Shown one piece after another: positions 3,428 to 50,042 of a stretch of DNA of 63,019 bases (position 1 is its first letter; each line of letters opens with the position of its first letter). The DNA lies in the NCBI GenBank assembly GCA_007117695.1, contig SKFZ01000014.1:1-63019 (forward strand). The letters are read 5' to 3'. This DNA is from Bacilli bacterium (GTDB taxonomy: Bacteria > Bacillota_I > Bacilli_A > RF39 > UBA660). The position numbers were made by a program, and so were the translations under genes. The notes under the pieces were generated by a model that worked only from the letters and a program-made list of their open reading frames with translations, searched no databases and was not told the origin of the DNA.

Positions 3428-3482
3428 ACGTATTACTCCTTCCGCCATGATTTAATTAAATCATAGTAATTTGTGCTTATTA

Positions 3483-3518: not shown

Positions 3519-4772
3519 TTAAACTTCTTCTATTTTTATATCTGCTCCAATATTTTGAAGCTTTTCTACTATATTTTCATATCCTCTAAGAATGTGCTGT
3601 GCATCCTCAATCACGGTTGTACCATCAGCAAATAAAGCAGCAAGAACAAGGCAAGCTCCAGCTCTCAAATCCGTTGCTCTAACCGTTGTACCTTTAAATT
3701 TTGTTGGTCCTGTAATTTTAATTGTTTGACCTTTAACTCTTATCTTCCCCCCCATATCGATTAAATATGGAACGTGTTGAAATCTATTTTCATAAATTGT
3801 TTCTTCAAGCTCACTTGTACCTTTTATCATCATTAAAAGTGGCGTTATTGGTTGTTGTAAATCAGTTGGGAACCCTGGATAAACTTGAGTCCTAACAATA
3901 ACCGGTCTTTCAACTTTACTCTTTTTAACAGTTATTGAGTCAACCTCATCATCAACATCATAACCTAACTCAAACAATTTAATTAGTAACGAGTCAAGGT
4001 GTCTTGGTATTAGATCTTTTACTTTTACATTTTTTCCTACCATCGCAGATAAAACAACATAAGTCCCAGCTTCTATTCTGTCAGGGATAACTTCAGTGTT
4101 ACAACCTTTTAGTTCTTTAACACCGGTAATCCTTATTTCAGCAGTTCCAGCTCCAGTTATTTTGGCCCCCATATTATTTAAAAAAGTTGCTACATTAGAT
4201 ATTTCAGGCTCCTTAGCAGCATTCTCTATTACTGTTTCACCTTCAGCCATAACAGCAGCAAACATAATATTAATAGTTGCACCAACACTTGGAAAATCTA
4301 AATATATTTCATTTCCTTTAAGCTTTTTTGCGCTTATAGTATACTTATTTCCATCTTCCTTAATTTTAGCGCCTAGAGCCTCAAAGCCTTTTAAATGTAA
4401 GTCAATCGGTCTAGAGCCAATTGAACATCCACCTGGAAAATACATTTCAACTTCCCTATATCTACCTAGTAAGGCTCCCATAAAATAATATGAAGCTCTT
4501 AATTTTTTTGAAATATCTTCTGAAATAACTAATTTTTTTACTTTTGAAGTGTCTATTTCGAGTGTAGAGTTTCCCCTTCTCACTTTAGCACCAAGATTAT
4601 CTAAAATTTCTGACAAAGAATCAATATCTGAGATATTTGGAACATTCTCTATTGTCACTTTATCTTTAGCTAATATTGAAGCAGGAACAAGCGCTAAAGC
4701 ACTATTTTTTGCTCCACTTACACTTATTTCACCTTTTAATTCTTTTTTGCCTCTTATAATGATTTTTTTCAT
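3519..4772 (-). CDS. murA: UDP-N-acetylglucosamine 1-carboxyvinyltransferase
   Basis: 417 aa. SGAKNSAL N-terminal motif and catalytic-loop Cys in PGGCSIGSRPIDLHL. Confidence 0.95.
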   Translation of the reverse strand: MKKIIIRGKKELKGEISVSGAKNSALALVPASILAKDKVTIENVPNISDIDSLSEILDNLGAKVRRGNSTLEIDTSKVKKLVISEDISKKLRASYYFMGALLGRYREVEMYFPGGCSIGSRPIDLHLKGFEALGAKIKEDGNKYTISAKKLKGNEIYLDFPSVGATINIMFAAVMAEGETVIENAAKEPEISNVATFLNNMGAKITGAGTAEIRITGVKELKGCNTEVIPDRIEAGTYVVLSAMVGKNVKVKDLIPRHLDSLLIKLFELGYDVDDEVDSITVKKSKVERPVIVRTQVYPGFPTDLQQPITPLLMMIKGTSELEETIYENRFQHVPYLIDMGGKIRVKGQTIKITGPTKFKGTTVRATDLRAGACLVLAALFADGTTVIEDAQHILRGYENIVEKLQNIGADIKIEEV

Positions 4773-33143: not shown

Positions 33144-33172
33144 TTGATAAATAAGTAAAAAAATAGTATATT
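33144..33172 (+). promoter_or_regulatory. Sigma-A promoter of the SRP RNA gene
   Basis: TTGATA, 17 nt spacer, TATATT. Confidence 0.65.
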
Positions 33173-33178
33173 GGTTGT

Positions 33179-33256
33179 GCACAACAATTAAGTGTTAACC
33201 TGGTCAGGATCGGAAGATAGCAGCCATAAACACCTCTGATTGTGTGTGCTTTTTTA
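33179..33256 (+). ncRNA. ffs: Small signal recognition particle RNA (4.5S/scRNA type), about 77 nt
   Basis: Domain IV signature CCTGGTCAGGATCGGAAGATAGCAGCC (compare E. coli CCAGGUCAGGUCCGGAAGGAAGCAGCC), with a GGAA tetraloop and CAGG/AGCA symmetric loop. The 5' GCACAACAATTAAGTGTT pairs with the 3' AACACCTCTGATTGTGTGTGC and is followed by a T-run. Ends are approximate. Confidence 0.75.
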
Positions 33257-33268
33257 TTAGGAGGTAAA

Positions 33269-43354: not shown

Positions 43355-43575
43355 ATCAATTAAAAAAGTTGTGAAAGAAAGAAAATTGTGGATTTTTTTA
43401 AGAGAGCTTGTGTCAGGTGCAAACAAGTAAATGAAACAGTTGAAATGGTTCTGGAACTGCTTGACCGATATTTAGGTCAAGACGTTGTGCGCGTTAAGCA
43501 TTTGAGGCAGTTATACTGTAAATTAAGGTGGTACCACGTAATCACGTCCTTATAATTAGGATGTGATTTTTTTAT
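43355..43575 (+). promoter_or_regulatory. T-box riboswitch leader, Met specifier (ATG)
   Basis: AGAGAG box at 43401. Specifier loop AGTAAATGAAA with ATG at 43431-43433. T-box sequence AAATTAAGGTGGTACCACG at 43519-43538. Terminator AATCACGTCC / GGATGTGATT followed by TTTTTTT. Confidence 0.85.
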
Positions 43576-43595
43576 TTAAGCAAGGAGGTAAAAAC

Positions 43596-45650
43596 ATGGA
43601 AAGATTTTTTGAAAAAATAAGTTTTGAGCAATTTGAAAAAGACCTTATTAATGATCCGATTTTGTATGCGAACATAGAATTACCAAAAAGAAGTACGAAA
43701 AATAGTGCAGGATATGATTTTTTTAGCCCTATAGACATTAAAATTGAGAAAGGGAAAGTAGCCCTAATTCCGACAGGCATAAAAGCATCTATGTTGGATG
43801 ATGAAGTTCTTCATTTATATGTTAGAAGTAGCTTAGGGATTAAGAAATCAGTTGTTTTAGCTAACCAAGTTGGAGTTATAGATGGAGATTATTATAATAA
43901 TGATAATAATGAAGGGCATATTTTTATAGCACTTAAAAATGAAGGAGATGAAGAATTCCATTTAAAAAAGGGTTCTGCATTTGCTCAAGGTGTGTTTATG
44001 AAATTTTTAAAAGCAAGTAATGAGGTGGAAGTTATGAATGAAAGATTTGGTGGAATCGGAAGTACGGATGAAGAAGAAAAAAAGCCGTATTATATTTCAA
44101 CAGCAATTGCGTATGCTACAGCTAAGCCACATATCGGAAATACATATGAAATAGTATTAGCAGATGCAATTGCTAGGTTTAAAAGAGAAGAAGGATATGA
44201 TGTTTATTTTCAAACTGGCTCTGATGAACATGGGCAAAAAGTTGAAGAAAAAGCGGCTATAGAAGGTTTGCCGCCACAAAAATATGTTGATAATGTTAGT
44301 TTGGAAATCAGAAGAATTTGGGATGTCATTAATACTAGTTACGACAAGTTTGTTAGGACTACTAACCTTAATCATAAAAAAGTAGTTTCAAACATTTATA
44401 AAAAAATTTATGAAAATGGAGATATATATAAAGGAGAATATGAAGGTTTATATTGTAAGCCTTGCGAATCTTTTTATACTAAGAGCCAACTCGAAGAGGA
44501 AAAGTGTCCTGATTGTCATAGGGAACTAACAAAAGTAAGTGAAGAAGCATACTTCTTTAAATTATCGAAATATCAAGACAGACTGCTTGATTATATAAAC
44601 GAGAACCCAGAGTTTATAAAACCTGATTCCCGAAGAAATGAAATTGTATCATTTATCAATCAAGGCCTTGAAGACCTTTGTGTATCTAGGACATCATTTA
44701 AATGGGGAGTTCCAATAGAGTTTGATGAAGGGCATGTAGCTTATGTATGGATTGATGCTTTAAGCAACTATATAACATTTTTAGGTTATGACCCATACAA
44801 AGAACAATCAGAGGAATTCAAAAAATATTGGCCAGCGGATGTCCACCTTATTGGGAAGGATATTACTAGATTTCATGCGATATATTGGCCGGCATTTTTA
44901 ATGTCTTTAGGGTTAGAATTACCAAAACAAGTTTTTGGACATCAGTTCATCACAGTTAATAGTGAAAAAATAAGTAAATCGACTGGGAATGATATTTATG
45001 CAGATGATTTAGTAAAGCACTTTTCTGTTGATGTTGTTAGATATTATTTGTTAAATGAAATACCATATTCATCTGATGGGAATCTTTCTTATGAATTGAT
45101 AATAGAAAGAAATAATTCTGATTTGGCGAATGTATTAGGGAATTTAGTTAATAGAACTATTTCTATGAGTTACAAATATTTTGACGGAATTGTTACTAAT
45201 GGAACGACTACTCATGATGTGGATGAAGAATTAAAAGATGTTGTTTTATCTGCTAAGGATAAAGTCTCAAAAGAAGTTGATGCATTAAAAGTTTCTAATG
45301 CAACAAAGGAAGTTTTCAAAATATTTAATAGAGCTAATAAATACATTGACGAGACAACGCCATGGTTGTTAGCAAAAAATGAAGAAGATAAAGATAGGCT
45401 CTCAGTAGTAATATACAATTTACTTGAATCAATTAGGCATGGAGCAATTTTACTAAAACCTTTTTTGCCAGAGACTTCAGAAAAAATCTTATTACAATTG
45501 AACACACAAAATGATAACTTCGATTCTTTGAAAACTTTTGAAGGATTAGATTTGGGCACTAAGTTAAAGGAACCAAAACCTCTTTTTGAAAGATATAACA
45601 AAGAAGAAAAATTAGAGTCTATAGAAAAAGGGATAGATCAGTTAGATTAA
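43596..45650 (+). CDS. metG: Fusion protein: trimeric-type dUTPase (N-terminal, about 165 aa) joined to methionyl-tRNA synthetase (about 515 aa)
   Basis: dUTPase motifs SAGYDF, VRSSLG, GVIDGDYYNNDNNEGHI, SAFAQGVF and ERFGGIGSTD. Linker DEEEKK. MetRS PYYISTAIAY, KPHIGN (HIGH), CKPCES...CPDCHR, and KISKS (KMSKS). One uninterrupted ORF. Confidence 0.85.
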   Translation: MERFFEKISFEQFEKDLINDPILYANIELPKRSTKNSAGYDFFSPIDIKIEKGKVALIPTGIKASMLDDEVLHLYVRSSLGIKKSVVLANQVGVIDGDYYNNDNNEGHIFIALKNEGDEEFHLKKGSAFAQGVFMKFLKASNEVEVMNERFGGIGSTDEEEKKPYYISTAIAYATAKPHIGNTYEIVLADAIARFKREEGYDVYFQTGSDEHGQKVEEKAAIEGLPPQKYVDNVSLEIRRIWDVINTSYDKFVRTTNLNHKKVVSNIYKKIYENGDIYKGEYEGLYCKPCESFYTKSQLEEEKCPDCHRELTKVSEEAYFFKLSKYQDRLLDYINENPEFIKPDSRRNEIVSFINQGLEDLCVSRTSFKWGVPIEFDEGHVAYVWIDALSNYITFLGYDPYKEQSEEFKKYWPADVHLIGKDITRFHAIYWPAFLMSLGLELPKQVFGHQFITVNSEKISKSTGNDIYADDLVKHFSVDVVRYYLLNEIPYSSDGNLSYELIIERNNSDLANVLGNLVNRTISMSYKYFDGIVTNGTTTHDVDEELKDVVLSAKDKVSKEVDALKVSNATKEVFKIFNRANKYIDETTPWLLAKNEEDKDRLSVVIYNLLESIRHGAILLKPFLPETSEKILLQLNTQNDNFDSLKTFEGLDLGTKLKEPKPLFERYNKEEKLESIEKGIDQLD

Positions 45651-45680
45651 TTTTTTGAGTAAACTACGGGAGGTGTTCAA

Positions 45681-46436
45681 ATGAGTAAATATGTTGATTC
45701 CCATGCGCATTTAATAAACAAATATTATAATGACTTAGAGGATTTAATTAATAACATTGATGACACTATTGTGATTATTAATGGAATTGATTATGAGTCG
45801 AATGCAGAAATTTTAAATATAATTGATAAAAAACCTAACTTATATGGGGCATTGGGAATTCATCCAACAGACGTTGATAACCATTCTTTTGAGGAATTAA
45901 AAGAAGTATTTAAAAAAACAAAAAATAAAAAAGTTATAGCAATTGGGGAGACTGGGTTGGACTTGTATTGGGATAAAAATAATCTTGAAAAGCAAAAAAA
46001 ATTTTTCAAGCTACACCTAGATGAGGCGAGGAAAAGAAAGAAACCTGTAATAATTCATAGCAGAGGTGCTGAAGAAGAAGTTTATGAGATATTAAAAGAT
46101 TACAAAGATGTTAAAAGCATCCTACATTGTTTTGGTGGGGATTTAGAAACAGCGGAAAAGTTTATCGGACTTGGAGCTTTAATTGGCATTGGAGGAGTGG
46201 TAACTTTTAAAAATGCTAAAGAACTACAAAAAATTGTTAAAAGTATTGATATTGAGAATATTATAACTGAAACTGATAGCCCTTTCCTTTCTCCAGAACC
46301 TAATAGAGGTAAAAGAAATGAACCTTCAAATATCAAGTATATTGTCAGAAAAATTGCTGACTTAAAAGGCCTTAACGATATTGAAGTTAAAGAAGCTATA
46401 TATAAGAATTTTAAACGTCAATTTGACTTAAAATAG
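45681..46436 (+). CDS. tatD: TatD family metal-dependent hydrolase/DNase
   Basis: VDSHAHL, IGETGLD, IIHSR, LHCF and ETDSPFL. Confidence 0.9.
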   Translation: MSKYVDSHAHLINKYYNDLEDLINNIDDTIVIINGIDYESNAEILNIIDKKPNLYGALGIHPTDVDNHSFEELKEVFKKTKNKKVIAIGETGLDLYWDKNNLEKQKKFFKLHLDEARKRKKPVIIHSRGAEEEVYEILKDYKDVKSILHCFGGDLETAEKFIGLGALIGIGGVVTFKNAKELQKIVKSIDIENIITETDSPFLSPEPNRGKRNEPSNIKYIVRKIADLKGLNDIEVKEAIYKNFKRQFDLK

Positions 46437-46488
46437 GTCATATGCTAACATTTAATTATCATATTATATTATGATTTAGAGGTGAAAA

Positions 46489-47190
46489 ATGAGTATTTTT
46501 TTATTAGATTTACTATCAAAATGGGTAGGTATATTGGTAATCTCTATACTTGCAATCATGCCTATTAGTATTTCTGAAACAACATATGAAGTTGAAAGTA
46601 ATAATGATATGGTTTTATCAGTTGAAACAAAAGTAATAGAAAAAGAAGTTAATCAAAGATTTTCATCAAAAATTCCAAGTAATAAAACTAAAGTCTTGGA
46701 TTCCGGACAGCATGGTATTATTTATATTGATCGAATTACTGGTGAAAAACTAACCATTAGAGACATGGTACCAAAAGAAGTATTGGTTGGAACGGGCAGA
46801 AACGGAAATTTCACAGGTGTATTAACTGGTTATGGTCCAGATTGTCCTGGTTGTAGTCCAGTAGGGAATGTAGCGTGCCGAACAAGAGAAGGAACTGCGC
46901 ATAGTTTAATTAATGATGGTTTGTATTATGATGATGCTGAGGCCGGTAAATTAAGGATTGTAGCAGCAAGTTTAAACGGATTCCCTTGTGGAACTGTCGT
47001 TAAAGTTGATAATGGTTCATTAAAGCCATTTTATGCAATTGTTTTAGATACTGGATATACGATGAGAAAATCATGGAATGAAGATAGAAGGGTTTGGATG
47101 GATTTAGCATTCAATACACAAGAAGAAGCGCGTAATGGAAATGCAACTAGTTATAATACTAAGTATAATGTACAAAGATGGGGATGGTAA
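46489..47190 (+). CDS. Membrane-anchored G5 plus 3D-domain cell-wall protein (YabE-like)
   Basis: N-terminal TM segment, G5-like segment VLDSGQHGIIYIDRITGEK...VLVGT, and 3D-domain core RIVAAS...GTVVKVDN...YAIVLDTGYTM...WMDLAF. Confidence 0.65.
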   Translation: MSIFLLDLLSKWVGILVISILAIMPISISETTYEVESNNDMVLSVETKVIEKEVNQRFSSKIPSNKTKVLDSGQHGIIYIDRITGEKLTIRDMVPKEVLVGTGRNGNFTGVLTGYGPDCPGCSPVGNVACRTREGTAHSLINDGLYYDDAEAGKLRIVAASLNGFPCGTVVKVDNGSLKPFYAIVLDTGYTMRKSWNEDRRVWMDLAFNTQEEARNGNATSYNTKYNVQRWGW

Positions 47191-47205
47191 ACCATCCTTT
47201 TTTTC
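47182..47205 (+). terminator. Intrinsic terminator
   Basis: GGATGG-TAAA-CCATCC followed by TTTTTTT; includes the stop codon. Confidence 0.75.
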
Positions 47206-47253
47206 TTGTCTGATATTATTTTATTTAGTATAATTACTAAACGAGGTGGTTTT

Positions 47254-48087
47254 ATGAAATATTCGCCAAAAGAAGTTAAAGATATTAATGAAAAGTTTAA
47301 TTTTAATTTCAAAAAAAAATTTGGTCAAAACTTTATAATAGACGAAAACATTATAAATAAAATAGTAGATAAATCTAACATAGATTCCAAGTCTTTAGTT
47401 GTGGAAATAGGTCCGGGAGGCGGATCATTAACGAATAAGCTTTCATTGACGGCCAAAAATGTGTTATGTTATGAAATAGATGAGCAATTAAAACCCATTT
47501 TAGAGGAACAGTTTAAAAATAAAACTAACGTTGATGTAATATATCAAGATTTTTTAAAAGCAAACTTAGCAAAAGATATAGAAAAATATTCTTATGAAAA
47601 ATTGTATGTCATTGCCAATTTACCTTACTATATTACCACCCCGATAATTATTAAATTAATTGAAAGCAAAGTTTGTATAGATAAAATTATAGTTATGGTG
47701 CAAAAAGAGGTGGGAGAAAGATTTTCGGCTTCAATTGGGAGTAAAAATTATGGGTCATTAACGGTTTTTTTAAACTATTATTTCAATATAAGCAAAATAG
47801 CAAATGTAAGTAGACATGTTTTCATCCCAGTTCCTAATGTAGATAGTGTTGTAGTGTTATTCGAACCCAAAAGTAATTTGATTAAGGCACGAAATGAAGA
47901 TCACTTCTTTGAATTAGTTAGGAAAAGCTTTAGGCAAAAAAGAAAAACCTTGAAAAACAATTTAAGAGAGTATGATTTAGAAATTGTTGAAAAAGTTTTA
48001 GAAAAAAGGGGCGAAAGTTTAAATACAAGAGCAGAGGCCCTGCCTTTGGATTTTTATGTGGAGTTGTCAAATGAATTATCTGATTAA
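47254..48087 (+). CDS. rsmA: 16S rRNA (adenine1518/1519-N6)-dimethyltransferase
   Basis: KKFGQNFI, EIGPGGGSLT and NLPYYITTPI. Confidence 0.95.
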   Translation: MKYSPKEVKDINEKFNFNFKKKFGQNFIIDENIINKIVDKSNIDSKSLVVEIGPGGGSLTNKLSLTAKNVLCYEIDEQLKPILEEQFKNKTNVDVIYQDFLKANLAKDIEKYSYEKLYVIANLPYYITTPIIIKLIESKVCIDKIIVMVQKEVGERFSASIGSKNYGSLTVFLNYYFNISKIANVSRHVFIPVPNVDSVVVLFEPKSNLIKARNEDHFFELVRKSFRQKRKTLKNNLREYDLEIVEKVLEKRGESLNTRAEALPLDFYVELSNELSD

Positions 48088-48718
48088 TAAAGAGTGGGAT
48101 GAGATTATTGACAAAAAAATGCTAAAAAGGATTTTAAAACAATTGGATTGTATATATAATGATAGTGAAGTTTTTCCGGAGAAACAGAATTTATTTAAAG
48201 CGTTTGAATTAGTAAAACCAAATGATGTTAAAGTAGTAATCATAGGTCAGGACCCATACCATAACGTAGGTCAAGCAAATGGATTGGCATTTTCTTTAAA
48301 CGAAGGAACTAAGGTTACGCCTTCATTAAGAAACATATTTCTTGAGTTAGAAAGAGATTTAGACATAAAGAGAGAAAAAGTAGATTTATCTGATATATCT
48401 AGCCAAGGCGTTTTGCTTTTAAATAGTATATTATCTGTTGAAAAGGGTAAACCTCTTTCTCATAAGAAACTAGGCTGGGAAATGTTCACAGATGATGTTA
48501 TAATGAAACTTCAAGAAGATAACTATCCAATTATTTTTGTTTTGTGGGGAAATTACGCAAAATCTAAAAAACCATTAATAAATAAGGAAGTAAATTATAT
48601 TGTCGAGGCTTCACATCCTTCCCCATTTTCTGCTAGGAGAGGTTTTTTTGGGAGTAAGCCTTTTTCAAAAATAAATAAAATTTTAAAGAAAGAGCATGAT
48701 TTAGAAATCAGGTGGTAA
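48071..48718 (+). CDS. ung: Uracil-DNA glycosylase (family 1)
   Basis: GQDPYH water-activating loop and HPSPFSA. Confidence 0.9.
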   Translation: MNYLINKEWDEIIDKKMLKRILKQLDCIYNDSEVFPEKQNLFKAFELVKPNDVKVVIIGQDPYHNVGQANGLAFSLNEGTKVTPSLRNIFLELERDLDIKREKVDLSDISSQGVLLLNSILSVEKGKPLSHKKLGWEMFTDDVIMKLQEDNYPIIFVLWGNYAKSKKPLINKEVNYIVEASHPSPFSARRGFFGSKPFSKINKILKKEHDLEIRW

Positions 48719-48719
48719 T

Positions 48720-50042
48720 ATGAAAAGTGTATTCGATATTATAAATTCAGAGATTCCTAATGACCAAACTATTGTTTTGGCAATTTCTGGTGGCCCTGAT
48801 TCAATGGCTTTGTTCAATTTGCTGATGGAAATTAGTGAAACAAAAAAATTCAGATTAGTTTGTGCGCATGTAAATCATAAAGTAAGATCTGAAAGTGATG
48901 AAGAAGAAAAAAAACTAAGGGAGTTTTTTCAAAACAAAAATGTTATTTTTGAAAGTACCCAAATTGATATTGAAATAAATGATAACTTTCATAATGAGGC
49001 GAGGAAAATTAGATATGACTTTTTCAATGACGTTTTAAACAAATATAATTCTAATTTCTTATTAACCGCGCACCACGGTGATGACTTACTTGAAACAATT
49101 TTAATGAGAATTGTTAGAGGCTCAACTTTGAAAGGGTATGCAGGGTTTAAAACTAAAAGTAAAAGTAACAATATTGCTATAATTAGACCATTAATCAAAT
49201 TAGAAAAGCAAGACATTTTAAATTATTGTGAAAAACATGAAATTCTCTTTTTTAATGATTCTTCAAATGAAAAGGATGATTACTTTAGAAACCGCATTAG
49301 AAAAAGAATTATTCCGATCTTGAAGTCAGAGAACCCTAAGATAGTTATGAACACATTAAAGTTTTCTGATGAAGTTAACGATGCTAATGATTTTATAGAA
49401 GGCATTGCCAAAAAAGAATATGAGAATGTTGTTGAAAACAACATTTTAAAAATAAAAAAATTTAATGAGTTACACAGTGTAATTAAAAAGCAAGTTTTAA
49501 GAATATATCTTTTAAATAACTATGGTGATAATATTAATAAATTGGGTGATTGCAATATTCGAGGGATTATTGCAATAATAAACAGCTCTAAACCTAATTT
49601 GGAATTGAATTTACCATATAATAAAAAAATAGTTAGATCATATGACAAACTATTTTTTGAAGAAGAGGTAAAAAAAATTGTAGTTAATGACATTTTAGAT
49701 AGCGATTATAATAGTGAAAAATTTAAAATTTTTTATAACTATCAAGGAAGCGCTGAACAAAACAACGATTTTATGAAATTAGATTCAAGAGAAGTAAAAT
49801 TACCGCTTCATATTCGAAACAGGGAAAACGGTGATAAAATCAAATTAAAAGGTGGGGGCACCAAAAAAGTTAAGGATATTTTGATAGATAAGAAGGTACC
49901 TTTAATCATCAGGAAAAATGTGATTGTAATAGTTGATTCAAAAGGAGACATACTATGGATACCAGGATTGTATAAAAGCAAATATGATAAAAAAATTAGT
50001 GAAAAATATGATATAATACTTAAGTACGCCAAAAAAGATTAG
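48720..50042 (+). CDS. tilS: tRNA(Ile)-lysidine synthase
   Basis: PP-loop ISGGPDSMAL and TAHHGDDLLET. Confidence 0.9.
   Translation: MKSVFDIINSEIPNDQTIVLAISGGPDSMALFNLLMEISETKKFRLVCAHVNHKVRSESDEEEKKLREFFQNKNVIFESTQIDIEINDNFHNEARKIRYDFFNDVLNKYNSNFLLTAHHGDDLLETILMRIVRGSTLKGYAGFKTKSKSNNIAIIRPLIKLEKQDILNYCEKHEILFFNDSSNEKDDYFRNRIRKRIIPILKSENPKIVMNTLKFSDEVNDANDFIEGIAKKEYENVVENNILKIKKFNELHSVIKKQVLRIYLLNNYGDNINKLGDCNIRGIIAIINSSKPNLELNLPYNKKIVRSYDKLFFEEEVKKIVVNDILDSDYNSEKFKIFYNYQGSAEQNNDFMKLDSREVKLPLHIRNRENGDKIKLKGGGTKKVKDILIDKKVPLIIRKNVIVIVDSKGDILWIPGLYKSKYDKKISEKYDIILKYAKKD

What the first reader, a model, noticed from the sequence alone, without database searches (positions are those of the whole stretch)
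43596..45650. Complete dUTPase fused in-frame to methionyl-tRNA synthetase under a Met T-box
One uninterrupted 684-codon ORF carries two enzymes.
- The N-terminal part has all five trimeric dUTPase motifs: SAGYDF, VRSSLG, GVIDGDYYNNDNNEGHI, SAFAQGVF and ERFGGIGSTD.
- After a six-residue DEEEKK linker comes a full class I MetRS core: PYYISTAIAY, HIGN, one CxxC...CxxC knuckle and KISKS.
- There is no in-frame Met near the MetRS start. As sequenced, the essential MetRS can only be made as a fusion.
- The only upstream control element is a T-box whose specifier is ATG. dUTP sanitation would therefore be co-regulated with tRNA-Met charging.
- ung lies 2.4 kb downstream.
- I do not know of a described dUTPase-aaRS fusion. 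aaRS fusions usually involve editing, tRNA-binding or GST-like modules.
Basis: partly seen in the sequence, partly recalled or inferred. Interest (0 to 1): 0.7.

Follow-up and report, generated by a model that had tools for sequence, protein, structure and literature searches.

The report
Natural dUTPase–methionyl-tRNA synthetase gene fusion
A real, evolutionarily conserved gene in a few uncultured gut/soda-lake-type Bacilli joins a DNA-sanitising enzyme (dUTPase) in frame to the essential methionyl-tRNA synthetase. It arose when two overlapping neighbour genes of a widespread tRNA-sensing (T-box) operon merged, and it probably keeps an internal start that can still make free synthetase.

Summary
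The 684-codon ORF (43596-45650) is real and encodes a complete trimeric-type dUTPase domain followed by a full MetRS core, behind a Met-specifier T-box. It is not an A-tract sequencing error. Two other lineages (77% identical, synonymous sites saturated) carry the same in-frame fusion with different linkers in the same synteny.

The fusion is a rare derived state. In 59 of 60 related species representatives, dut and metG are separate but abutting or overlapping genes behind the same T-box. In another 15, dut abuts tyrS instead. A roughly 10-nt deletion in an ATGAATAA-type overlap explains the fusion.

Both domains are under strong purifying selection.

All three fused genes conserve GAGGTG-N6-ATG (Met147), built from rare codons, 17 codons before the MetRS core. 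It is the strongest internal ribosome-binding site in each gene.

Co-regulation with tRNA-Met charging and the nearby ung are ancestral to the clade, not consequences of the fusion.

No paper describing this was found in the searched library. The closest precedent is the Mycoplasma penetrans aminotransferase-MetRS chimera. This is a new variant of a known kind, of moderate interest.

The parts
43362..43554 (+). T-box leader RNA. The specifier AUG is at 43445-43447 (GAA-AUG-G) and the T-box sequence GGTGGTACCACG is at 43527-43538.
   Evidence: Rfam RF00230 scores 120.3 bits against a gathering score of 93. The specifier was read from the model alignment. The same A-AUG-G is seen in relatives.
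43540..43577 (+). T-box intrinsic terminator: an 11-bp stem followed by a T run. It overlaps the antiterminator/T-box 3' side.
   Evidence: terminator scan; sequence.
43582..43589 (+). Shine-Dalgarno AAGGAGGT for the full-length product.
   Evidence: Anti-SD duplex dG is -13.2 kcal/mol, the best in the gene.
43596..45650 (+). dut::metG fusion ORF, 684 aa plus stop.
   Evidence: Orthologous fused ORFs are P0002 (685 aa) and P0003 (687 aa).
43596..44069 (+). dUTPase domain (aa 1-158). The core is aa 1-137. The flexible C-terminal arm carrying motif V (ERFGGIGST) is aa 138-158.
   Evidence: Pfam PF00692. PDB 3h6x matches at E 5e-33 with all motifs aligned. AF2 pLDDT is 84-94 for the core and below 50 for 152-160. 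dN/dS is 0.09-0.12.
44022..44036 (+). Candidate internal translation start: SD-like GAGGTG (44022-27), a 6-nt spacer, and in-frame ATG (Met147, 44034-36). It would give a 538-aa MetRS with a 17-residue leader.
   Evidence: - It is conserved as AGTAATGAGGTGGAAnnnATGAA in all three fused genes and is absent in the unfused sister L004.
- dG is -10.3, the best internal SD-start in each of the three genes.
- It uses the rare codons GAG (19%) and GTG (12%), which are 2 of only 7 conserved-rare codon columns out of 466.
- In the background, 8 of 311 internal in-frame ATGs reach dG <= -10.
- The region is predicted unstructured.
44067..44084 (+). Linker D158-K163 (DEEEKK). It contains the A7 run at 44077-44083 and an A AAA AAG heptamer at 44078-44084.
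   Evidence: The linkers of relatives differ (SEKTEN / STDTEKP) and lack the A run.
44085..45647 (+). MetRS domain (aa 164-684): Rossmann core with HIGN and KISKS, one Zn knuckle, and an anticodon-binding helical domain. There is no C-terminal tRNA-binding/dimerisation domain.
   Evidence: NCBIfam NF008900 scores 712.8 bits over model positions 2-522 of 648. Pfam PF09334 and PF19303 match. dN/dS is 0.05-0.10.

Best explanation
This is a genuine bifunctional gene, made by fusing two neighbouring genes of a T-box-controlled operon.

Origin. In the wider clade of uncultured low-GC Bacilli, dut is the first gene behind a tRNA-Met-sensing T-box leader. It abuts or overlaps metG, as in ATGAATAA in the sister lineage. 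In one sub-lineage a small deletion of about 10 nt (3n+1) removed both the dut stop and the metG start. This put MetRS in frame eight residues after dUTPase motif V.

Expression. Transcription of the whole unit reads through the leader terminator only when uncharged tRNA-Met pairs with the AUG specifier. This step follows from established T-box knowledge.

Products. Translation from ATG 43596 gives a 684-aa Dut-MetRS polypeptide. Its dUTPase cores would trimerise and carry three monomeric MetRS bodies on a roughly 27-residue flexible arm plus linker.

Inferred, about 0.55-0.6: a second, in-frame initiation at the conserved GAGGTG-N6-ATG (Met147) additionally yields free MetRS with a 17-residue leader. 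MetRS supply would then not depend on the fusion, while dUTPase would exist only as the fusion.

Both catalytic domains remain functional, inferred from intact motifs and strong purifying selection.
For: Shown:
- The ORF and its domains are as described.
- The same in-frame fusion occurs in P0002 (two assemblies, ENA and NCBI) and P0003, at 77% aa identity. The synteny is identical and the linkers differ.
- Synonymous sites between the three are saturated (pS 0.6-0.77). dN/dS is 0.05-0.12 in both domains.
- The sister lineage L004 has T-box-dut-metG with an 8-nt overlap. It aligns to the fused genes with a 10-nt gap exactly at the junction.
- 59 of 60 species representatives with dut next to metG keep two genes.
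- In an NJ tree the fused trio is monophyletic and nested within the unfused dut-metG lineages.
- T-box leaders lie upstream of dut in relatives.
- The internal SD+ATG is supported as follows: conserved sequence, best internal anti-SD energy in all three genes, conserved rare codons, low background rate and no masking structure.
- AF2 gives a confident dUTPase core and a disordered arm and linker at 140-163. The first MetRS strand is at 164-168.
Against: - There is no expression, proteomic or enzymatic data.
- Only three fused lineages exist, and they share ancestry, so conservation of the internal SD/ATG rests on few independent observations.
- There are four invariant runs of 14 nt or more in the gene, so nucleotide conservation alone is not exceptional.
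- Motif V normally sits 2 residues from a free C-terminus (3h6x). Tethering a 60-kDa body 8 residues after it could impair arm closure and dUTPase turnover.
- The NCBIfam dUTPase equivalog scores are below their cut-offs.
- I could not check whether the fused genomes carry a second dut or metG elsewhere.
Confidence: 0.8

Rival explanations
1. Obligate fusion. The only MetRS in the cell is the 684-aa Dut-MetRS polypeptide. The GAGGTG-ATG147 element is a coincidental coding feature and is not used for initiation.
For: - There is no start codon at the canonical MetRS N-terminus, and the ancestral metG ATG is deleted.
- SD-like sequences plus in-frame ATG do occur by chance, in 8 of 311 internal ATGs in this window.
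- Only three related sequences support conservation.
Against: - The element is the strongest internal SD-start in each of three genes whose synonymous sites are saturated.
- It uses two rare codons conserved in all three, which are 2 of 7 such columns out of 466.
- It lies exactly upstream of the MetRS core.
- Both the Met and the SD are absent from about 59 unfused relatives.
Confidence: 0.35
2. Artefact. A miscounted A-tract (44077-44083) or a mis-assembly joined two separate genes.
For: A 7-A homopolymer sits exactly in the linker. Homopolymers are error-prone on some platforms.
Against: - Two other lineages have the same in-frame junction without an A7 run (GAAAAAACTGAAAAT and GATACTGAAAAACCT).
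- One of them was recovered in two separate assemblies.
- No ATG or SD for a separate metG exists at the junction.
- All three ORFs are intact for about 2 kb under purifying selection.
Confidence: 0.02
3. The dUTPase moiety is no longer a dUTPase. It is retained as an N-terminal oligomerisation or expression module for a MetRS that lacks the usual C-terminal dimerisation/tRNA-binding domain.
For: - MetRS here lacks the C-terminal domain (model positions 523-648 unmatched).
- The M. penetrans MetRS dimerises through a fused N-terminal enzyme domain (PMC13215547).
- Motif V is tethered close to MetRS.
- Some unfused relatives have lost motif V (L026, L030, L084, L013, L064).
Against: - All five catalytic motifs, including motif V, are intact in all three fused proteins.
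- dN/dS of the core is about 0.1.
- Unfused relatives also lack the MetRS C-domain (521-aa proteins), so no special need for oligomerisation arises in the fused clade.
Confidence: 0.1
4. Programmed -1 ribosomal frameshifting at A AAA AAG (44078-44084) releases free dUTPase (163 aa plus a 13-aa tail, stop at 44123-44125), as in dnaX.
For: The heptamer is in the correct zero-frame register, and the -1 frame stops 13 codons later (my reading).
Against: - It is not conserved. L001 and L003 have no X XXY YYZ site at the junction.
- There is no downstream stimulatory structure (z = +0.67).
Confidence: 0.03

Closest known systems
Mycoplasma penetrans chimeric MetRS (NTase-like NTD - alanine-glyoxylate aminotransferase - MetRS; PMC13215547)
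   Same: A MetRS core lacking its own oligomerisation module is fused at its N-terminus to an unrelated, self-oligomerising metabolic enzyme. The host is a low-GC, reduced-genome Bacilli/Mollicutes-type organism. The domains are expected to act independently.
   Different: - The partner here is a trimeric dUTPase (nucleotide sanitation), not a dimeric PLP aminotransferase that makes methionine, so no substrate-channelling logic is apparent.
- The linker is only about 8 residues.
- The fusion is traceable to an adjacent-gene operon.
- A conserved internal start may still yield free MetRS.
T-box-regulated aminoacyl-tRNA synthetase operons of Firmicutes (RF00230)
   Same: The leader has a specifier loop (AUG), a T-box sequence and a terminator/antiterminator directly upstream of the aaRS coding unit.
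   Different: A non-translation gene (dut) is inserted between leader and aaRS, and here it is fused to the aaRS. In sister clades the same dut sits in front of tyrS. I found no paper describing dut as a T-box-controlled gene. The search covered open-access text only.
Genes with in-frame tandem translation starts giving long and short isoforms (e.g. E. coli infB IF2-alpha/beta, clpB, cheA; from general knowledge)
   Same: There is one ORF with a strong internal SD plus in-frame ATG. The short product would equal the C-terminal functional module.
   Different: Use of the internal start is inferred from sequence only. Here the long form carries a whole extra enzyme rather than an accessory domain.
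Stand-alone trimeric dUTPases of Firmicutes (closest solved: PDB 3h6x)
   Same: All five motifs are present, including the long DYYNNxxNEGHI motif III insert and GGxGST motif V (E 5e-33).
   Different: The chain does not end 2 residues after motif V but continues into a 521-residue synthetase.

Membership tests
Trimeric dUTPase (Pfam PF00692) | Profile match above the curated cut-off | tested here: met
   51.3 bits against 22, aa 26-145.
Trimeric dUTPase (Pfam PF00692) | Five conserved motifs, including the catalytic Asp of motif III and the P-loop-like motif V | tested here: met
   SAGYDF, RSS, GVIDGDY, AQG and RFGGIGST align with PDB 3h6x. They are invariant in the 3 fused proteins.
Trimeric dUTPase (Pfam PF00692) | NCBIfam equivalog-level score (PRK13956 / TIGR00576) | tested here: not met
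   139.8 against 223, and 83.2 against 102.55. It is a divergent subfamily, as are its stand-alone relatives at 60% identity or less.
Trimeric dUTPase (Pfam PF00692) | Homotrimer assembly and dUTP hydrolysis | not testable with these tools
   Only a monomer AF2 model is available. There is no biochemistry.
Methionyl-tRNA synthetase, class Ia (NCBIfam NF008900 / TIGR00398) | Equivalog profile above the cut-off | tested here: met
   712.8 against 598, and 524.6 against 336.
Methionyl-tRNA synthetase, class Ia (NCBIfam NF008900 / TIGR00398) | HIGH and KMSKS signatures, Zn knuckle, MetRS anticodon-binding domain | tested here: met
   HIGN, KISKS and CKPC...CPDC are in the translation. PF19303 matches.
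Methionyl-tRNA synthetase, class Ia (NCBIfam NF008900 / TIGR00398) | C-terminal tRNA-binding/dimerisation domain of long bacterial MetRS | tested here: not met
   Model positions 523-648 are unmatched. The same is true of the 521-aa relatives. It is not required for membership.
T-box leader (Rfam RF00230) | Covariance-model score above gathering; specifier loop, T-box sequence, terminator | tested here: met
   120.3 bits against 93. GAA-AUG-G specifier, GGUGGUACCACG, and terminator at 43540-43568.
T-box leader (Rfam RF00230) | tRNA-Met-dependent antitermination | not testable with these tools
   Inferred from the family mechanism.
In-frame dual-start (isoform-producing) genes | Internal SD at proper spacing plus an in-frame start codon, conserved among orthologues | tested here: met
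   GAGGTG-N6-ATG, dG -10.3, in all three fused genes.
In-frame dual-start (isoform-producing) genes | Demonstrated initiation at the internal site / presence of the short isoform | not testable with these tools
   Needs ribosome profiling or proteomics.
dnaX-type programmed -1 frameshift | Conserved slippery heptamer with a stimulatory element | tested here: not met
   The heptamer occurs only in the window and is absent in L001 and L003. There is no downstream hairpin.

The most novel reading that the evidence does not exclude
The fusion is a 'Rosetta stone' for a real functional partnership between dUTPase and class I aminoacyl-tRNA synthetases in this clade. dut is translationally coupled to metG or tyrS behind T-box leaders in about 75 species. 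In three lineages it is covalently joined. The dUTPase trimer may therefore act as a scaffold or regulator of the synthetase, or it may link dNTP-pool sanitation and replication to tRNA charging status. The two-start architecture would tune the ratio of scaffolded to free MetRS.
Probability: 0.12. Interest if true: 0.75.

Novelty: new variant of a known kind. Interest (0 to 1): 0.45.

Why it matters
- Fusions of aaRS to unrelated enzymes are rare in bacteria. [quoted passage not shown]
- This adds a second, independent type of N-terminal enzyme-MetRS chimera. Its evolutionary origin is unusually clear: an overlapping operon pair merged by a small deletion.
- It also uncovers a broader pattern that I did not find described in the searched papers. 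In a large clade of uncultured Bacilli, dUTPase is the first cistron of T-box-controlled metG or tyrS operons. dUTP sanitation is therefore transcriptionally slaved to tRNA charging.
- The conserved internal ribosome-binding site makes this a tidy test case for how an essential enzyme tolerates capture by an upstream ORF.
- It is not a new mechanism, and the physiological benefit may be nil, for example neutral fixation of a fusion in a tightly coupled gene pair.

Tried and rejected
- **Sequencing error at the A7 run.** Rejected because of conserved fusions with different linkers.
- **Search for more fused genes.** Searching the 5.8-billion-protein set with the dUTPase domain alone listed only stand-alone dUTPases and did not even return the query's own protein, so it was uninformative for enumerating fusions. 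Three other searches found no further fused gene: the HMMER scan of 1.84 billion representatives, the species-representative genomes and the metagenome contigs.
- **-1 frameshift at A AAA AAG.** Not conserved, and no stimulatory structure.
- **Internal promoter in front of the MetRS part.** The scan gave only weak 9/12 matches, fewer than in shuffles.
- **Nucleotide conservation alone as proof of the internal RBS.** Insufficient, because there are 4 invariant runs of 14 nt or more. Rare-codon and background-rate tests were therefore added.
- **ung proximity as a functional link.** The same synteny exists where dut is absent.
- **Specifier codon of the dut-tyrS T-boxes.** L085 reads GAA-UAU-A (Tyr), but the register in L078 is ambiguous. 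Left unresolved.
- **Fold search of the AF2 model.** Not run, because sequence-level assignment of both domains is unambiguous.
Full report
**1. Observation**

The window contains one uninterrupted ORF on the + strand, from ATG 43596 to the stop at 45648-45650 (684 aa). The mechanically longest ORF starts at GTG 43563. That codon lies inside the T-box terminator hairpin (43540-43568). ATG 43596 is preceded by AAGGAGGT (43582-43589) and gives the N-terminus MERFFEKI shared by relatives.

- Pfam assigns dUTPase (aa 26-145, 51.3 bits), tRNA-synt_1g and the MetRS anticodon domain.
- NCBIfam's MetRS equivalog PRK12267 scores 712.8 (cut-off 598) over aa 161-679. It matches only model positions 2-522 of 648, so the C-terminal tRNA-binding/dimerisation domain is absent.
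- The dUTPase part aligns with PDB 3h6x at E 5e-33 with all five motifs in register. In that enzyme the chain ends two residues after GFGST.

Rfam finds a T-box leader at 43362-43554 (120.3 bits against a gathering score of 93). GAA-AUG-G sits at the specifier position (AUG = 43445-43447). ung (PF03167) is at 48056-48718.

One statement is wrong. There is an in-frame Met near the MetRS start: Met147, ATG 44034-44036, 17 codons before Pro164.

**2. The fusion is real**

A search of 5.8 billion protein clusters returned two further proteins with both domains. They are P0002 (685 aa) and P0003 (687 aa), each 77% identical over the full length.

Their loci have the same gene order: pth, mfd, T-box, dut::metG, (a greA-like gene), tatD, a 233-aa ORF, ksgA, ung, tilS, ftsH. 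P0002 occurs in two assemblies, an ENA metagenome and the NCBI MAG GCA_007116525.1 'Bacilli bacterium CSBr16_55'.

The junction peptides differ: GSTDEEEKKPYY, GSTSEKTENKFY and GSSTDTEKPKYY. The relatives have no A7 run.

Pairwise synonymous differences are saturated (pS 0.6-0.77). dN/dS is 0.09-0.12 for the dUTPase core and 0.05-0.10 for MetRS. The frame has therefore been kept open, and both halves kept under purifying selection, over a long time. This excludes an A-tract miscall.

**3. Where it came from**

The closest unfused relative, L004, has a MetRS 69% identical. Behind mfd it carries a T-box, then a 165-aa dut whose last codons overlap the metG start by 8 nt (...CATGAATAA...). Aligned to it, the three fused genes show a 10-nt gap exactly over that overlap. 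This removes the dut stop and the metG ATG and shifts the frame by one.

A scan of one genome per bacterial species returned 80 dut loci. My tblastn/ORF script gave the following.
- 60 loci have dut directly upstream of metG.
- Only one of these (L008, which is P0002) is fused.
- The other 59 have a stop 0-10 codons after GxGST and a separate metG ATG. The genes usually overlap or lie within about 30 nt. A few have inserts.

In a neighbour-joining tree of the MetRS part, the fused trio is monophyletic. It is sister to L004 and nested within the unfused dut-metG radiation (no bootstrap). The fusion is thus a single, derived event.

Neither the metagenome-contig scan nor an exhaustive HMMER search with the dUTPase domain found another fused gene. 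In the HMMER search, only the window's own protein among the 150 best cluster representatives exceeds 400 aa.

**4. Regulation is ancestral, not a product of the fusion**

- The T-box signature GGTGGWACCRCG lies 52-74 nt upstream of dut in 51 of 64 dut-metG loci.
- Rfam confirms full T-boxes in L001, L003, L004, L017, L031, L042, L049 and L054, with A-AUG-G at the specifier.
- In 15 of the 19 remaining dut loci, dut instead abuts or overlaps tyrS. A reduced T-box lies upstream in L078 (78.7 bits, E 1.6e-17).
- dut is therefore habitually the first cistron of T-box aaRS operons in this clade.
- More distant relatives (Fimihabitans-like, L005-L007) have T-box-metG without dut. They still have ung downstream, so the ung neighbourhood is plain synteny.

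**5. A probable internal start**

All three fused genes share AGTAATGAGGTGGAAnnnATGAA. This is GAGGTG, six nucleotides, then an in-frame ATG at codon 147. The unfused sister has neither the SD nor the Met, and none of the 59 unfused dUTPases shows a Met at that position.
- With a Bacillus-type anti-SD, the site has dG -10.3 kcal/mol. It is second only to the annotated start and is the best internal SD-start pair in each of the three genes.
- The SD is built from GAG (19% of Glu codons) and GTG (12% of Val codons), conserved in all three despite saturated synonymous sites. Only 7 of 466 aa-invariant degenerate columns keep an identical rare codon, and two of them are these adjacent codons.
- Across long ORFs of the window, only 8 of 311 internal in-frame ATGs reach dG <= -10. 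That is about one per 2,500 codons.
- The region is predicted unstructured.

Caveats remain. There are only three related sequences. The gene contains four invariant runs of 14 nt or more and another conserved-rare pair at codons 360-361.

I put the probability that this site initiates a free 538-aa MetRS (MNERFGGIGSTDEEEKKPYY...) at about 0.55-0.6. If it does, MetRS is not hostage to the fusion, whereas dUTPase exists only fused.

**6. How the protein would work**

The AF2 model was built from an 80-sequence alignment (mean pLDDT 81.9). It gives a confident dUTPase beta-core (aa 1-137, pLDDT 84-94). There is a low-confidence stretch at 140-163 that includes motif V and the linker. The first MetRS strand is at 164-168.

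About 27 flexible residues therefore separate the two folded bodies, with motif V in the middle. This is compatible in principle with the arm closing over a neighbouring active site in a trimer while dragging MetRS. Trimer assembly and activity could not be tested.

T-box control by uncharged tRNA-Met is inferred from the family's established mechanism.

A dnaX-like A AAA AAG heptamer lies in register in the window's linker (44078-44084). It is not conserved and has no downstream structure, so I treat it as chance.

**7. Comparison with what is known**

Full-text searches found no paper on a dUTPase-aaRS fusion or on dut as a T-box-regulated gene. The search was limited to the held open-access library.

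The closest precedent is the Mycoplasma penetrans MetRS. It is fused N-terminally to an NTase-like domain and a dimeric aminotransferase, and it dimerises through the appended enzyme. [quoted passage not shown]

The present case shares the architecture: an N-terminal oligomeric enzyme plus a C-terminally truncated MetRS in a reduced low-GC lineage. It differs in three ways. The partner enzyme is different. There is no obvious metabolic link to methionine. A conserved internal start is present.

Mechanistically, the two-start idea resembles infB, clpB and cheA. This resemblance comes from general knowledge and was not tested.

**8. Verdict**

The artefact hypothesis is refuted.
This is a genuine bifunctional fusion under a Met T-box. 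The 'only as a fusion' claim is doubtful, and the co-regulation and ung arguments are ancestral features of the clade.
- Novelty: a new variant of a known kind, namely an enzyme-aaRS chimera arising by adjacent-gene fusion.
- Interest is moderate (0.45). The case is tidy and previously unreported. The wider dut-aaRS T-box operon pattern is worth a note, but no new mechanism is implied.

Noticed in passing
L067, L070, L071, L073-L080, L083, L085-L087 (e.g. L078 3968-5685): In 15 species the same dUTPase subfamily gene directly abuts or overlaps tyrS (TyrRS) instead of metG. A T-box lies upstream in L078 (78.7 bits, lacking stem II). dut therefore seems to be a recurrent first cistron of T-box aaRS operons in this clade.
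   Followed up: partly
window 44078-44084: A AAA AAG, a dnaX-type -1 slippery heptamer, lies in the zero-frame register inside the Dut-MetRS linker. The -1 frame stops at 44123-44125. It is not conserved in L001 or L003, and there is no downstream hairpin.
   Followed up: yes
L026, L030, L084, L013, L064 (dut 3' ends around locus positions 4450-4495, or 3223-3262 in L026): Some unfused dut genes upstream of metG have lost the canonical motif V (e.g. ...ERTGWSSLGKSGDLDE*). This suggests degenerate or altered dUTPases in parts of the clade. In L046 and L084, 0.8-1 kb is inserted between dut and metG.
   Followed up: no
P0004 (637-aa MetRS homologue, NCBI source): It contains two internal duplicated MetRS segments relative to all other homologues. 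It looks like an assembly or repeat artefact rather than a domain gain.
   Followed up: no
window 43596-43627 and the equivalent in L001 and L003: A 32-nt run at the 5' end of the fused genes (codons 1-11, MERFFEKISFE) is invariant in all three lineages although synonymous sites are saturated. This may reflect a constraint from the translation-initiation region, or it may be codon bias on low-degeneracy residues.
   Followed up: no
window 33169-33265 (+) and 3436-3466 (-): Small bacterial SRP RNA (63.9 bits) and an L31-Firmicutes ribosomal-protein leader (34.9 bits, just above gathering).
   Followed up: no
L001 8097-8654; L003 7554-8081: The two other fused lineages have a 175-185-aa GreA/GreB-like gene between dut::metG and tatD. 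The window lacks it: the metG stop at 45650 is followed by the tatD start at 45681.
   Followed up: no
window 45650-50042: There is no terminator-like site after the fusion ORF. The same-strand genes tatD, a 233-aa ORF without a Pfam hit, ksgA, ung and tilS follow with short gaps or overlaps. Some T-box-controlled read-through into ung is therefore possible.
   Followed up: partly
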